Assembly (NCBI GenBank): GCA_964016885.1
Contig: OZ024743.1
Span: 195,610,001 to 195,674,000 of the forward strand
DNA length: 64,000 nt
Reading direction: 5' to 3'
DNA from: Eledone cirrhosa
Lineage: Eukaryota
Position numbers and translations under genes: made by a program. Position 1 is the first letter of the stretch; every line of letters starts with the position of its first letter. This document shows positions 34,655 to 63,430 of the stretch, piece after piece. Below the pieces are notes generated by a model. That model did no database searches. It was not told the DNA's origin and saw only the letters and a list, made by a program, of their open reading frames with translations.

Positions 34655-35192
34655 AAATAGAAAAAATGAAATTCCATTTCTCACTCTTAGTACGGCTGAT
34701 ACTTAACTATAAATATGTATACGTACATACATATATGTATACAGACGTACAGTAGTATGTATATACATACATGCGCATATATATATATATATATATATAT
34801 ATATATATATGTGTGTACGTATTGGTTTAGCGAACATTTATTATAATGCTCAGTTTGTTTGTAAACAAACAGCCCGAATTTTTAGCCGTACAGTGTTCGG
34901 CAACCATCGTTGCCCTTTTGTCCAGCACTGACAAAGGAAAGATGAACTAGTTTATAGCTTATTAGCTGTCATCAGTACCGTATACCTTCCTGTCAGTCGA
35001 TTGAACGTTTGAAAGTATATACTTTCCTTATGCATATTAACGGCTGGGCAGCCTAATGTGTATATCGAGTGAGTTAGTCGGCCGGGTGAACCGAAAACGA
35101 TAGATGGAAAAAATGAAATTTCATTTCTCAATCTTAGTACGGCTGATACTTAACTATAATTATGTATACGTACATACGTATACAGACGTATG
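34655..35192 (-). mobile_element. Dispersed diverged copy (~1.2 units) of the 473-bp retrozyme-like family
   Basis: Collinear with the array unit. HHR on the minus strand at ~34940-34981 (CTGATGA intact, GAAA mutated). Terminal direct repeat 34660-34750 / 35100-35190. Confidence 0.8.
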
Positions 35193-36442
35193 CTTTTTGA
35201 CAGGGAGGTGTACAAGGGCATATCCATACAAGTGTGCAAGTGAGCGTTCATCTTTTTTTCACTATATTAAGTAGTTTCTACCTGCCAGCATATTAGGTGA
35301 CTTACTGCTCAACAATTTTGTCCGTCTAGTGGTCTGTGTTCAAGATGCATGACAGCGTTCTGAAATAAAGGTGCTAAAATGCCTGTAATTTCTGTTCCAT
35401 TACAGCTGTGTTCAGTTCTTCCACCCATACGAAATGAAGAAGACGGTTTAAGCTTAGGTGAGGAAACTGATGTAACGACTCTTACATTCATCTCTTTTTA
35501 ATGGGCTGTCATTCTTGGTCAAATCAGTTCCTTTGTATTTAAAGTTGTTCACCTTTTAAATTTTGTCAGTTCAGCGTGAAGTAGTTATTGCATTGAAGAT
35601 GTGACAACTTAACCGAAACCTGCACTTTTCTGAAATTAACTTTTTTCAGAATGATAGTGATGACATCAACAGAGGCAAATAGTACCAAACACTACAGTTG
35701 CGTTTTCACATTCGCTAGAATAATGTATATGTTCCTGAGCAATGTTAATGTGTATGTACCAATATGTTCGAAACGATGGAGATGTCGGTAGACATTTAGG
35801 ACTGTAATTACAGTAAAATACCTGTTAAATGAATGTATGTAACCAACGTTGAAAGTAATCAAGGAAGAGCTGGTTAAACTACGTACATATTTATACATAC
35901 AAATAATAGTACAAACAGTAAATCCAGAGGGAGTTATTCAGGCCAATAAATAGTATATTGAAAATGTGAAATAAAAAATATATATATTCTATACGCAAGA
36001 GCGAACTATGTTATGAAAAAGGCGATAACATAAAATAATTTAAGCAGACAAGCAGCACACATGAAAAAAAAAAATATCAATATATAATATAAAGTTTATT
36101 GTTCTGTGGTATAACTTGGGGTATTCAAAGTCAATAACCACGCAGAATAGGAGTATTTATTGCAGACAGACAAAATGTTCATAGTTGTAAAATAAACCAA
36201 TAGCAATAAGAACAGGACTACTGTCTGGGGATGAGACATGTAAGTGTTGAAAAGCAATAGTAAAGCTGAATTAGAGAAAAGCTCAACTTCTTAAAGCAAG
36301 TGTAGAAATCATGTACTTAGCTTTAGTAATCATTAATGTTTTTCATGGATTTGAGTGTGAACCTTGTCTTAAATAACAAGAATGTGTGTCCGAACACAAA
36401 GGAGCCAAACTCCCAATGTCACTGCCTTCACCTTTCCCGCTC

Positions 36443-36592
36443 TGCGGTGGATTGGCAGTATCGGTAGATGATTGGACGCTCCTTTACGGAGGTTAACTTT
36501 GCCTTTCATCCTTACGGGGTAGATAAAATAAAGTACCAGTTATGTACTGGATTAGTTGCTGGACTTGTGCCAAAAGTAGCAACAATTATTAT
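36443..36592 (+). mobile_element. SINE S1 with internal deletion
   Basis: A box joined to the core; B box missing. Confidence 0.75.
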
Positions 36593-37079
36593 GAGCAAAT
36601 GGCGGCACCCCGCGACCCCGATGGACAGAATAGAGAAGGCGTTTCCTCGGAGAATGGTGAGGGAGAGGCGTTGGAACATTCATTCCAGCTCTAGTGGCTC
36701 ATATCTGCGGTTAACCAACTCTGTGTTGATGGTGGTGATTAGGGAGGGGGCCCTTGGGGCAAGGACACCAGAAGTCTCCACTGCTACGGGCTCGATCACA
36801 AAGCTGTCGGAGAACGACTTTGTATCAGAATGTGTCAGGATAGAAGCAGATAATCTATCCGGACAGTTGTTTCCAAGCTAATGGTGTTACGATAATTTCA
36901 GAATTGTATATCAGGAAAAGATCCTCCTCTCAGATTACTTGTAAAGTAAATGAACCCTAACAAAATGTACGAATAGGGCTAGGGCAGAACCTATAGTGAA
37001 ATAATTTCTTTTAAAAATACACACACACACACGCAGACACACACACATATATATATATACATACATATATATATACATA

Positions 37080-37690
37080 CATGGTGGCTGCCAACTCGTT
37101 TTCGGGTACGGCCACTACTTTATATCCATGTAGGAGAATCCCTACCGATGCGCTGAACGAGTGTGACTTTTTAGTCCAGCCAGCGACTTGAAAACTCTGG
37201 TACAAAGACTACACTTGTGACAACTATTGACACATAGTGCTGGGCCCATGGTACCATGTGACGACAAGTGCAGAGAGATCTCCAGATATAAAGCAATGCC
37301 TGTGCCGTGAAGCTTTTATAGTGAGCAAAGGCACTGCACAAAGCCAGTCCCACTCTCTTAACCAAGATGATATTTACCAAAAAGAATAACAAGTCAACAT
37401 CATTGGATACCATCAGGGTTGCAGGTGTTATATCAGAGTTTTCCTTCTCCTAGAATTCTGCCGTGAAAAAGGCTAAAGGGTCATCTCTCCCGGTAATTGT
37501 GGATGGCCATTGACTCTTAAGAGCTCCTTTGCCCTTTGACAGGTTTTTTTTTTAGTCCTGCAGGATGTCCAAAGTCACCCTCCTCACCAAGAAACCTTGG
37601 TGGGGTTGCCAGTTTAGTCGCCAACGACCCGCCCATGAGACAAGTTGTACTGGGATACATGATACCAGTAGCACCAACTGGTGACCTGAC
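37080..37690 (-). mobile_element. Bipartite RTE-derived non-autonomous element (~610 bp)
   Basis: Reverse complement of 56114-56720; (CATA)n flanks. Confidence 0.85.
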
Positions 37691-37711
37691 ATAACATACA
37701 TACATACATAC

Positions 37712-60344: not shown

Positions 60345-62235
60345 CCCACACATACTAAAATACACACATAACAACACATACACATGCAGACACATACACA
60401 TCTATGCATATACACACGTACACCTACATGCGCAGACCCCCCCCCCCCACATACATATATCGAAGTATATATACTCACACACCGTCTCTCCCTCACTTAC
60501 ACGGACGCATTTTCACCCACTTGTTCATACATACCGCCACGTGCCATCTTACGGCTGTTTACTTCGCGCTCTGTATCAATTGGGATAAGCATATCCTACT
60601 CAAACATACACATATATACATATATACATATATACGCGCGCACATATACATACGCCCAACCTTCTATACATTTAAATATATATATATATCTTTCTCTATA
60701 TATATATACACACTCATACACACACATATACACATACACACATACAGGCACATACATACACACATGTGTATACACACATATTTGTATATACACACATATA
60801 CACATACATACACACACACATACATATATAAGTTTATACTCACACATGTCCACACATACATACGAATACACATACGTACCTAAACATTACCTACACAAGT
60901 ACATACACACACACATATATATACATATATTTATATACATATATATACATATATACACACAAAAGAAAAGAGACAAATTAACATGCGTACGCATTTCCAC
61001 ACATATACATACAAATACCCACGCATATGCCGATAAACATACATTTACACATACATACGCATACGTGTTGCCACATGCATACACCTGCACGCATGCATAT
61101 CTGCCTACACACACATGTGCTACCACATATACATACATAAACACACCACCTGTAAGTGAACAGTTAAAAATACATTATGCAATAGGACAACGGTAAATTA
61201 CCGTAATATAAAAAAATTGAATATACAATGTAGTATAAAATGCAATATGATACACATATATATATATATATATATACACATATATCTCTCTCTCCCCTAT
61301 TATATATATATATACATACATAAACGTATATATACACACACACACATAACACATACACACACATATACGTACACAGACTCATACATATACGGATATATAC
61401 GGAAATATATAGAGGATATGTGATAAAATAATACAAGAATAATAATAATAATAATTGTTTCTACTTTTGGCACAAGGCCAGCAAGTACCCAGTGTATTAC
61501 TGGTACTTTATTTTATCGACCCCGTAAGGATGAAAGGCAAAGTTAAACTCGGCGGAATTTGAACTCAGAATGGCAAGGGCTTTAACTCTATGCGTCAAAG
61601 CATGGCATCCAACCCCCTACCGATACTGCCAATTCAAGCCCTTAATAATAATAGTAATAATAAAAAAGCATACATAGTCCATATATAATCATCCGCACAT
61701 ATTCCTATGAGATGCACATAAACACATACTTGTATGCACAAATACATGTACACACATATAGAGGCCCGCAAATACATGCACCTGCACCCACAAACACATC
61801 CAGATATATACACGTACACACACACATATATATACGCACACTTACCCACCCACCCCACACACATACACCTACTCAAACGTGGCTAAACGTAGATACTCAC
61901 ACATACATACATAGACATATATATATATATATATATATATATATATATATATATATATATATATATATGTGTGTGTGTGTGCTCATATATAGACACACAT
62001 ATACCCATACCCACACACACATACACCCACATTCCGCCATATATGTATATATATGCACATGTTTGCACATACAGGCGCGTATAAGCTCGTGCACGCACAC
62101 ACAGACACACACACGCACCCATGCCCATATAGACACCCCAGCACCCACCCACGTATATATATATGCATACATACATACGCATCTACTCACGCACACAGGC
62201 ACATATACCCACACACATGTCCACACATAAAAACA
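60345..62235. repeat. Low-complexity (CA/TA) degenerate microsatellite region interrupted by a SINE
   Basis: Direct inspection. Confidence 0.85.
61450..61635 (-). mobile_element. SINE S1, full length
   Basis: Reverse-complement A box, B box, core and tail. Confidence 0.88.
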
Positions 62236-62519
62236 CGTGAATATAAACACAATATGATAATAAAATAAAATAAATAAATTAAGTTACAATATTTTAGGGT
62301 ACATTAAAATATGTATGTAACTGCATAAATAGGTACTCGAAAAGAAGGGGTAAAATAAAGGAACGGGTAAAATAAAAAAAAATAAAATAAAATAAAACGT
62401 TGGGGGGGGGTACAGGAGAAGGTGCGTGCGTCTATCCGATATACTACACACAGGTGTTATGAGATGCCAACTTGTGTCCGTGTATAGAACAGATAACAGT
62501 AACAGAACAATGATAGAAC

Positions 62520-62712
62520 AATAATTGTTTCTATTTTAGGCACAAGGCCAGCAATTAACCAGTGCATTACTGGTACTTTATTTTATCGACCCCGTAAGGA
62601 TGAAAGGCAAAGTCGACCTCGGCGGGATTTGAACTCAGATCGTAAAGGGACGTAACTATGGTGGAAAGCATGGCGTCCGACCCTCTACCGATACTGCCAA
62701 TCCACCGCCCTC
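62520..62712 (-). mobile_element. SINE S1, full length, with apparent target duplication ATGATAGAACAAT
   Basis: Reverse-complement S1; ATGATAGAACAATAAT occurs at both 62510 and 62714. Confidence 0.88.
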
Positions 62713-63143
62713 TATGATAGAACAATAATGATATTAATAATTACTGTTCCAAAGTGGAACAGGTGTAGAGTATATAGTGACGATTGACGGTGTACACATT
62801 CAATGTGACGCCTGTCACGGTCGCCATGGGGCATGTCACCGTGGCTCGGGTGTGCTGTTCTATACGTTTATTTCACAGGACCGGGTGGCAGTGCGGCCCA
62901 GTGTCAGCCGGTCAAGGCCCATGCGGTATATCTTCCAATGTTGTGTGCACGGACACCGTCATCATGGCATGGCGTCAGGTCCCCTAATCCCGCTAGGCCA
63001 ATCGGATCTGTGCGTACTCATTCCCATGCACCCTCCCTGCGTCACCCGGCGGTTTCCATGCCCCATGGAGATAGTCAGACTGAAGGATGACGCCGTCAAC
63101 CTGAAGTCTGAAATTATCATGACATGCTGACACCAGAGAAGAT

Positions 63144-63430
63144 GCTTGAAACTACTACATCGTTCCTTTGTCAGTGTTGAACAAAAGGCGACGATGGTTG
63201 CCCAACACTGTACGGCCTAATTCGGGCAGTTTGTTTACAAATAAACCGAACATTATAATAAATGTTCGGTAAACCCATACGTACATATATATATGTGTGT
63301 GCATGTATGTATACATATAAATACTACTGTACGTATGTATACAAATATGTATGTACCTATATATACTTATATTTAAGTATCAGCCGTACTAAGAGTGATA
63401 TATGAAATTTCGTTTTATTCTTTTCCATTT
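63144..63430 (+). mobile_element. 5'-truncated copy of the 473-bp retrozyme-like family
   Basis: Starts inside HHR stem II (GCTTGAAACTACTACATCGTT) and ends at the family 3' end GAAATTTCGTTTT..TTTCCATT-(TA)n. Confidence 0.8.

What the first reader, a model, noticed from the sequence alone, without database searches (positions are those of the whole stretch)
34655..63430. Dispersed copies of the 473-bp family share one 3' end and show covariation in RNA stems
Seen: relatives at 4722-4763 (-), 34655-35192 (-), 54233-54625 and 63144-63430 all end at the same GAAATTTCGTTTTCATT..TTTC(A/C)AT terminus fused to (TA)n, with variable 5' truncation. Stem I keeps pairing as CGATG/CATCG, CGGTG/CATCG and CGTTG/CAGCG. 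A second hairpin around TTATAATAA keeps pairing with different sequence: GCGACG..CGCCGC in the array, CCGAACAT..ATGTTCGG at ~63246 and CACCGAGCAT..ATGTTTGGTG at ~54490. Inference: a mobile, RNA-structure-constrained family spread by target-primed reverse transcription rather than a static satellite.
Basis: partly seen in the sequence, partly recalled or inferred. Interest (0 to 1): 0.8.

Follow-up and report, generated by a model that had tools for sequence, protein, structure and literature searches.

The report
Ribozyme repeat hitch-hiking on Penelope retrotransposons
A 470-base non-coding repeat with a hammerhead-ribozyme motif has spread to over ten thousand places in this animal genome, and its insertions carry the two fixed end points and mirror-image arms typical of Penelope-like jumping genes, so it is likely copied into DNA by their enzyme, a link proposed for this known class of elements.

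Summary
Real, and a new member of a known class: an animal non-LTR retrozyme. Each ~470-bp unit holds a type I hammerhead motif (11,184 exact matches in the genome, reversed control 0). In 65 of 65 inverted insertions one arm ends at A and the other at B; 5' ends are scattered and do not pile up at the ribozyme cut site. This is the 'tail plus inverted arm' signature of Penelope-like elements (PLEs). Stems covary among subfamilies and a diverged sister family (12 of 44 pairs; not phylogeny-corrected). No PLE with a homologous terminal repeat was found. A Hydra-type PLE in the genome shows the same two-end rule and forms three chimeric insertions with these repeats, making it the leading, unproven, mobiliser. 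Expression, self-cleavage and circular RNA are untested.

The parts
5591..5734 (-). Inverted 5'-truncated arm of the array insertion; 3' end at site B fused to (TA)n (5562-5590)
5735..7855 (+). Main arm: 4.5 tandem ~470-bp units, 3' end at site A fused to (TA)n (to 7908)
6079..6119 (+). Type I hammerhead motif, unit 1 (CUGAUGA core at 6084; predicted cut after GUA at 6114)
6555..6595 (+). Hammerhead motif, unit 2 (stem I CGGTG/CATCG)
7028..7068 (+). Hammerhead motif, unit 3 (stem I CGATG/CATCG); best Rfam match Hammerhead_HH9, 20.2 bits, E 0.006, below the gathering score of 52
7498..7538 (+). Hammerhead motif, unit 4 (one change in stem II)
7795..7855 (+). The 'tail' between site B and site A in the last unit (54-62 nt depending on subfamily); holds the 5' strand of a predicted long-range helix (CCATAC, pairs with GTATGG in the next unit) and a hairpin
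4720..4763 (-). Tail-only copy ending at site A in (TA)n
34653..35190 (-). 1.15-unit copy of subfamily B ending at site A; hammerhead at 34945-34978 has lost core G12
54232..54309 (-). Short arm ending at site A in (TA)n (54185-54234)
54312..54630 (+). Long arm ending at site B in (TA)n; hammerhead 54370-54403 with a damaged core (CTGTCGA), stem I CGTTG/CAGCG
63125..63432 (+). 5'-truncated copy starting inside a damaged hammerhead, ending at site A in (TA)n

Best explanation
This is a non-coding, non-autonomous retroelement of the animal non-LTR retrozyme type whose ~470-nt hammerhead-bearing RNA, likely circular or multimeric, is likely bound in trans by the reverse transcriptase/GIY-YIG endonuclease of a Penelope-like element (best candidate: a Hydra-clade family) and copied into (TA)n microsatellites by target-primed reverse transcription. 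Shown: two fixed 3' ends (A, B) joined to (TA)n; scattered 5' ends; head-to-head arms in which one always ends at A and the other at B; either arm can hold several units and runs through the ribozyme cut site; the two arms of one insertion are closer to each other than to other insertions; stems keep pairing across subfamilies. Inferred: the enzyme nicks both strands of a (TA)n tract, one strand primes cDNA at site A and the other at site B inside the folded RNA (internal initiation), each cDNA runs for a variable distance round a circle or along a multimer, and the two are joined head-to-head; tandem arrays are thus mostly born at insertion, and a few long ones later amplify as satellite DNA. 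Untested: transcription, self-cleavage (subfamilies A/B lack the usual G10.1-C11.1 pair, so weak cleavage is predicted; sister family C keeps it), circularisation, identity of the enzyme.
For: Copy number 11,184-12,926 ribozyme matches, controls 0. 199 of 215 arm ends in 146 regions fall at A (107) or B (92); 87 of 107 and 81 of 92 at one offset; 180 of 199 followed by (TA)3 against 14% background. 65 of 65 inverted insertions pair A with B, none AA or BB (63 had both arms resolved). 4 of 194 5' ends within 5 nt of the ribozyme cut, about 6 expected; 291 segments run through it. 22 of 63 inverted insertions have an arm with 2 or more ribozymes, 10 A arms and 12 B arms. Opposite arms differ by a median 3.0% against 6.3% between insertions; own partner closest in 25 of 36. 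Covariation: 12 of 44 pairs with double changes, score 0.190 against 0.104+-0.009 (0/500 shuffles) and at most 0.097 for slid controls. Sister family C shows the same two-end, inverted-arm build. A Hydra-type PLE (808-aa ORF, DKT, CxCX5C, CxxC, CxH motifs; 14,563 exact terminal-repeat matches) has its own short and long ends in (TA)n, paired long+short in 9 of 10 resolved inverted copies, and is joined directly to these repeats in three insertions (L204, L205, L293/L344) that each keep one long and one short end across the two sequences. Literature: tail at one end, inverted 5'-truncated copy and (TA)n targeting of PLEs (PMC8557442, PMC3846280); two internal RT start sites delimiting the tail and cleavage/extension of both strands in vitro (PMC11167929); retrozymes proposed to use PLE machinery (PMC7229834; bioRxiv 10.64898/2026.07.22.740005).
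Against: No autonomous PLE with a terminal repeat homologous to the unit was found; the unit has no meaningful similarity to the Hydra-type element (best E 0.004, low complexity). The three chimeras could be secondary insertions into a shared (TA)n target with deletion; a fourth direct junction, with a second Hydra-type family, is short+short (L202) and one control LINE also abuts a copy (L184). The tail (54-66 nt) is longer than the 30-40 bp described for PLEs. The covariation test is not phylogeny-corrected, the three family-C rows supply many of the double changes, and pairs-with-double-change reached the observed value in 10 of 500 shuffles. End counts start from an anchor just upstream of B, so arms that stop earlier are not counted (a few such were seen); class B includes at least one end 16 nt past B. 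Rfam scores are below the hammerhead gathering threshold. Target-site duplications cannot be read inside (TA)n.
Confidence: 0.78

Rival explanations
1. The units are just the terminal repeats (pLTRs) of an autonomous PLE family not yet found; the copies are ordinary 5'-truncated PLE insertions rather than a separate non-autonomous RNA.
For: Identical end anatomy to PLEs; PLE insertions are mostly 5'-truncated (PMC8557442); my genome searches list only the first or best hits, so a rare full-length parent could be missed.
Against: Units follow each other head-to-tail with no coding sequence (up to 8 units in A/B arrays, 31 in family C); in none of the fetched loci does a PLE ORF run into the unit at a shared junction, whereas the three real PLE families examined have their own, different repeats.
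Confidence: 0.1
2. A SINE-like RNA mobilised by an ordinary LINE, with inversions made by LINE-1-type twin priming on one RNA molecule.
For: Fixed 3' end, 5' truncation and 5' inversion are also LINE features (general knowledge); RTE-, CR1- and Tx1-like LINE remains are abundant in the fetched loci; the 54.2-kb copy alone looks like twin priming.
Against: Twin priming predicts that the A arm stops near the internal priming site B: true in only 2 of 63 insertions; about 40% of single-arm insertions end at B with no A (16 of 39 classed at A or B); no poly(A) or LINE-like tail; a PLE in the same genome shows the same two-end rule.
Confidence: 0.05
3. A DNA-level element: a Helitron/Helentron-like non-autonomous repeat or a satellite dispersed by extrachromosomal DNA circles, with structure a by-product of palindromic, TA-rich sequence.
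For: Tandem arrays, internal microsatellite and hairpins resemble such elements (recalled, not tested); a 9-unit higher-order repeat exists in one long family-C array; antisense strands also fold better than shuffles (z -1.6 to -6.4).
Against: Conserved hammerhead core with the cleavage position varying only among A, U and C; sense strand folds better than antisense in all 8 representatives; random 5' truncation with two fixed 3' ends and the strict A+B rule are not features of these DNA elements as I recall them.
Confidence: 0.04

Closest known systems
Animal non-LTR retrozymes (Cervera and de la Pena 2020, PMC7229834; Li, Clavereau, Pollet, bioRxiv 10.64898/2026.07.22.740005)
   Same: Non-coding tandem units with one type I hammerhead each, low GC, monomers to multimers, dispersed, co-existing with PLEs; proposed there to be mobilised by PLE enzymes.
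   Different: Unit 427-520 bp with an internal microsatellite (upper end of the 150-450 bp range of the 2020 paper; within the 51-972 bp of the preprint); insertion ends mapped here show the PLE tail and inverted arms, which the passages I read do not report for retrozymes; no homologous PLE terminal repeat found; A/B lack the G10.1-C11.1 pair; expression and circles not shown.
Endonuclease-positive Penelope-like elements: pLTR, inverted 5'-truncated copy and one-sided tail (PMC8557442, PMC3846280, PMC11167929)
   Same: [quoted passage not shown]
   Different: No RT/GIY-YIG ORF; tail 54-66 nt rather than 30-40 bp; many-unit arrays.
Hydra-clade PLEs (Craig et al. 2021, PMC8557442, section read in full)
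   Same: (TA)n targeting; two families in this genome carry the clade's DKT, CxCX5C, CxxC and CxH motifs, and one shows the same long+short end rule and chimeric junctions with the repeat.
   Different: Their terminal repeats and hammerheads are unrelated in sequence to the unit; RWK motif reads RWI/RWR; clade placement rests on motifs, no tree was built.
Non-autonomous Chlamys PLEs such as MRC1 (passage in PMC8557442)
   Same: Non-autonomous, multicopy head-to-tail insertions with pLTR-like ends.
   Different: Those lack canonical hammerheads and usually share 3' sequence with their autonomous partner; green algae.

Membership tests
Non-LTR retrozyme | Type I hammerhead motif in each tandem unit | tested here: met
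   CUGAUGA / stem II / GAAA / short palindromic stem III / stem I in all 4 full array units; best Rfam hit Hammerhead_HH9, below gathering; 10.1-11.1 pair non-canonical in A/B, G-C in C
Non-LTR retrozyme | Short tandem units, monomers to multimers, dispersed, GC under 50% | tested here: met
Non-LTR retrozyme | No protein-coding capacity, no LTR/PBS/PPT | tested here: met
   No meaningful ORF on the unit; no terminal repeats other than partial units; PBS/PPT not searched separately
Non-LTR retrozyme | Highly self-paired monomer RNA | tested here: met
   z -4.0 to -9.6 for 8 representatives, microsatellite mostly excluded; z -5.0; prediction only
Non-LTR retrozyme | Expressed as linear and circular RNA; self-cleaves | not testable with these tools
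   Needs RNA data or a bench assay
Penelope-like element insertion signature | Two 3' ends delimiting a tail found at one end only | tested here: met
   199 of 215 ends at A or B; 65 of 65 inverted pairs A+B; tail 54-66 nt, longer than the 30-40 bp described
Penelope-like element insertion signature | Inverted 5'-truncated copy head-to-head with the main arm | tested here: met
   29 of 60 clusters taken in chromosome order are simple inverted pairs
Penelope-like element insertion signature | AT-rich / (TA)n target | tested here: met
   180 of 199 ends followed by (TA)3, background 14%
Autonomous PLE | RT plus GIY-YIG ORF between pLTRs | tested here: not met
   No ORF between units; no recurrent ORF junction in fetched loci
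Retrozyme derived from a PLE pLTR (2026 preprint) | Sequence homology to the pLTR of a resident PLE | tested here: inconclusive
   None to three PLE families examined; other families not examined
Hydra-clade PLE (candidate partner, L379) | DKT, CxCX5C linker, CxxC and CxH motifs, RWK, hammerhead, (TA)n targets | tested here: met
   RWK reads RWI; no Pfam hit; no phylogeny
LINE-mobilised SINE with twin-priming inversions | Non-inverted arm stops at the internal priming site | tested here: not met
   2 of 63 within 10 nt of site B

The most novel reading that the evidence does not exclude
A Hydra-clade Penelope-like enzyme mobilises in trans a circular ribozyme RNA that shares no sequence with it, recognising fold alone; the two nicked strands of a (TA)n target are primed by an asymmetric enzyme pair at two different fixed sites (one long, one short end, never two alike), even when the two arms come from different RNAs. 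This would name the first retrozyme-PLE pair from integration footprints and turn the PLE 'tail' into a strict one-site-per-strand rule that can be tested in vitro.
Probability: 0.4. Interest if true: 0.68.

Novelty: new member of a known kind. Interest (0 to 1): 0.46.

Why it matters
How animal retrozymes get into the genome is stated as open in the papers read (PMC7229834 names PLEs as 'a strong candidate'; the 2026 preprint shows co-occurrence and pLTR homology and leaves the mechanism unresolved). This family gives footprint evidence at scale: PLE-type ends, independence from the ribozyme cut site, and multi-unit arms on both sides, as expected of a circular or multimeric template. The 65-of-65 A+B rule constrains how PLE enzymes treat the two target strands, and a small structured RNA with defined start sites plus a candidate intact partner ORF is a ready in vitro substrate. 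The class and the tail signature themselves are not new.

Tried and rejected
Whole-window Rfam scan returned only microsatellite-driven miRNA matches among the 150 of 263 rows listed; the hammerhead appears only in focused scans. Partner hunt: the 775-aa PLE family seeded from window 59237-59845 has a different 3' region; a 713-aa Hydra-type family has its own repeat; 4 of its 29 non-seed loci hold a copy of the repeat upstream, no more than the local density suggests, and its one direct junction is short+short; two ribozyme variants 4.2 kb apart looked like pLTR-ORF-pLTR but are a 9-unit higher-order repeat; a 1.7-kb gap between opposite arms held a LINE fragment, not a PLE ORF; rare ribozyme variants were point mutants or isolated motifs. 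No RNA holder listed; laying contigs of four unlabelled runs gave dense cover in one and little in the others and no information on ends or expression. RNAalifold on the MAFFT alignment recovered stems I and II but mis-aligned family C at the tail and missed the long-range helix. The first end-classifying script left 26 of 143 ends as 'other', many through its own low-complexity filter, and was replaced by motif and alignment mapping. A first 5'-end count used a wrong offset for subfamily B and was redone. Circular folding finished only for subfamily A (one search stopped with an error). Ordered unit variants are not clearly shared between the window array and three sister arrays: too few sites to tell circle from multimer. 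No earlier finding of this scan on this genome or sequence.
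Full report
1. Observation. The window lies in a 3.0-Gb, microsatellite-rich animal genome (host not identified). It holds a 4.5-copy, 470-bp array at 5735-7855 and four dispersed relatives. Three end at ...GAAATTTC(G/A)TTT...TTTC(C/A)AT followed by (TA)n (site A). The array has the same build: an inverted arm ending at B (5591) and a main arm ending at A. The quoted stems are present.

2. What the unit is. Each full unit has a type I hammerhead motif: stem I, CUGAUGA, stem II with a 6-nt loop, GAAA, a 2-bp palindromic stem III (ACUAGU), cut site after GUA. 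The best Rfam match in a focused scan is Hammerhead_HH9 (20.2 bits, E 0.006; gathering 52). The three dispersed copies that reach it have damaged cores. An exact 33-letter pattern matches 11,184 times in the genome, a looser one 12,926 times, reversed controls 0. A diverged sister family (C, 466-470 bp) was found; with it the count is 19,278; its ribozyme scores 30.4 bits and keeps the G10.1-C11.1 pair that PMC4209133 calls highly conserved, while A/B have U-U or C-A there. The cleavage position is A, U or C in the subfamilies, as the NUH rule (general knowledge) requires.

3. Ends. In 146 regions (some taken in chromosome order from pattern hits, some as best BLAST hits, plus the window), 215 arm ends were mapped: 107 at A, 92 at B, 16 elsewhere; 87 and 81 of them at a single offset; 180 of the 199 are followed by (TA)3 within 14 nt against 14% background. 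The mapping starts from an anchor just upstream of B and misses arms that stop earlier; a few were seen. About half of the insertions are head-to-head pairs (29 of 60 clusters in the chromosome-order set). In 65 of 65 such pairs one arm ends at A and the other at B (36 chromosome-order, 27 best-hit, 2 window); 63 had both arms resolved. With independent ends about half would be AA or BB. 5' ends are scattered: 4 of 194 lie within 5 nt of the ribozyme cut (about 6 expected) and 291 segments run through it, so a ribozyme-cut linear monomer is not the template. The A arm stops near B in only 2 of 63 cases, against LINE-type twin priming; arms are equally long (medians 423 and 427 nt) and either may hold several units (10 A arms, 12 B arms with 2 or more ribozymes). 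Opposite arms of one insertion differ by a median 3.0% against 6.3% between insertions, and are each other's closest match in 25 of 36 tests. Family C follows the same rule (ends at unit positions 466 and 395-400).

4. RNA structure. Eight representatives fold with z -4.0 to -9.6 on the sense strand, always lower than antisense (-1.6 to -6.4), 40 shuffles each (one search gives -5.0 for the window unit). On 16 representatives chosen from 31 clusters of 182 distinct stretches, a 44-pair structure has 12 pairs with double changes; covariation score 0.190 against 0.104+-0.009 (0/500) and at most 0.097 when slid; the count of such pairs was reached in 10/500 shuffles. A predicted long-range helix pairs the tail (CCGTAC or CCATAC) with the next unit (GTACGG or GTATGG), G-C to A-U in 2 rows, and family C folds an equivalent TCATAC/GTATGA helix; it can form only in a circle or multimer and encloses site A. 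The sequences are related, family C supplies many changes and was mis-aligned at the tail, so this is support, not an R-scape result.

5. Comparison with the literature. Read: bioRxiv 10.64898/2026.07.22.740005 (parts 1-3 of 5: abstract to discussion), PMC11167929 (parts 1-2 of 4: main text), PMC4209133 (parts 1-2 of 4), passages of PMC7229834, passages and the Hydra section of PMC8557442, passages of PMC3846280. No supplements were seen; they may list related families. The unit fits the non-LTR retrozymes. [quoted passage not shown] Seven searches listed no paper mapping such ends for retrozymes or describing this family; the library lacks most subscription papers and Repbase/Dfam were not available, so it may already be catalogued.

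6. Which enzyme? No PLE with a homologous terminal repeat was found. A Hydra-type family with an intact 808-aa ORF (L379; DKT, CxCX5C, CxxC, CxH motifs, 37% identical to a second 713-aa family; no Pfam hit) is abundant (14,563 exact matches), ends in (TA)n at two sites about 90 nt apart and pairs long+short in 9 of 10 resolved inverted copies. Three insertions join it directly to the repeat: L205 (repeat arm ends at A; other arm repeat-then-PLE ends at the PLE short site), L293/L344 (same, family C, junction at site A with short microhomology) and L204 (PLE arm ends at its long site; other arm PLE-then-repeat ends at B). All keep one long and one short end, as single events with a template switch would. 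But secondary insertion with deletion can mimic this (about 1 in 8 by chance for the end types), a junction with the 713-aa family is short+short (L202), a control LINE also abuts one copy (L184), and the loci screened (286 with repeats; 39, 35, 22 and 15 fragments of the four elements) were partly selected with PLE queries. I put the Hydra clade as mobiliser at about 60%.

7. Mechanism. Shown: end positions, A+B rule, (TA)n targets, multi-unit arms, compensatory changes. Inferred: a PLE enzyme, probably as a pair, nicks both strands of (TA)n; one strand primes at A and the other at B inside the folded RNA, helped by TTAT-like microhomology; the cDNAs run variable distances on a circular or multimeric template and are joined head-to-head, often with 1-4 nt overlap. 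Long arrays can amplify further at DNA level (9-unit higher-order repeat). Untested: expression, cleavage, circles.

8. Verdict. Real; reader largely right; a new member of a known kind. Its value lies in the clean footprint evidence linking retrozymes to PLE-type integration and in a testable candidate partner. Earlier scan notes on other genomes report similar PLE-type stubs and one tandem parasite; they were not tested here and are not counted as support.

Noticed in passing
G000 C1:5.738-5.752 Mb (L268, L269); L202:6438-7701; L304: Sister retrozyme family C (466-470 bp, canonical G-C closed stem II, GUU or GUC cut site), several thousand copies, arrays of 31 or more units, one with a 9-unit higher-order repeat.
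   Followed up: partly
L379:2071-4494 (-), L378, L348-L377: Abundant Hydra-type PLE with intact 808-aa ORF, asparagine-rich linker between RT and endonuclease, own hammerhead and a ~90-nt tail.
   Followed up: partly
L218, L221, L223 (G000, 111 hits): Second Hydra-type PLE (713-aa frame) with a hammerhead-like motif whose core reads CAGAAGA instead of CUGAnGA, and two ends about 85 nt apart.
   Followed up: partly
window 59234-59845 (-): GIY-YIG end of a high-copy PLE family with a 775-aa open frame elsewhere in the genome and a microsatellite-rich 3' region.
   Followed up: partly
window 50739-51131 (-) and 50266 (-): Another PLE endonuclease fragment with a minimal hammerhead about 470 bp downstream.
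   Followed up: no
window 27230/27236, 54745/54898, 26524, 33500: Further hammerhead-like motifs of other families, two of them as short palindromic pairs typical of PLE stubs.
   Followed up: no
window 63533-63787; also 21972-22232, 40713-40952, 42008-42259, 51218-51505: A second dispersed family with inverted arms flanked by (TA)n, five or more copies in the window; likely another PLE-type stub.
   Followed up: no
window 9200-9363 and about ten other places (14735-15383, 23048-23265, 51832-51986, 61422-61666, 62492-62741): High-copy ~200-bp SINE-like family.
   Followed up: no
window ~10000-14600: GC-rich decayed non-LTR retrotransposon (RVT_1 hit at 12509-13357).
   Followed up: no
window 37028-37714, 56070-57389: ~670-bp element present once at 37 kb and as a tandem pair at 56 kb, 93-94% identical.
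   Followed up: no
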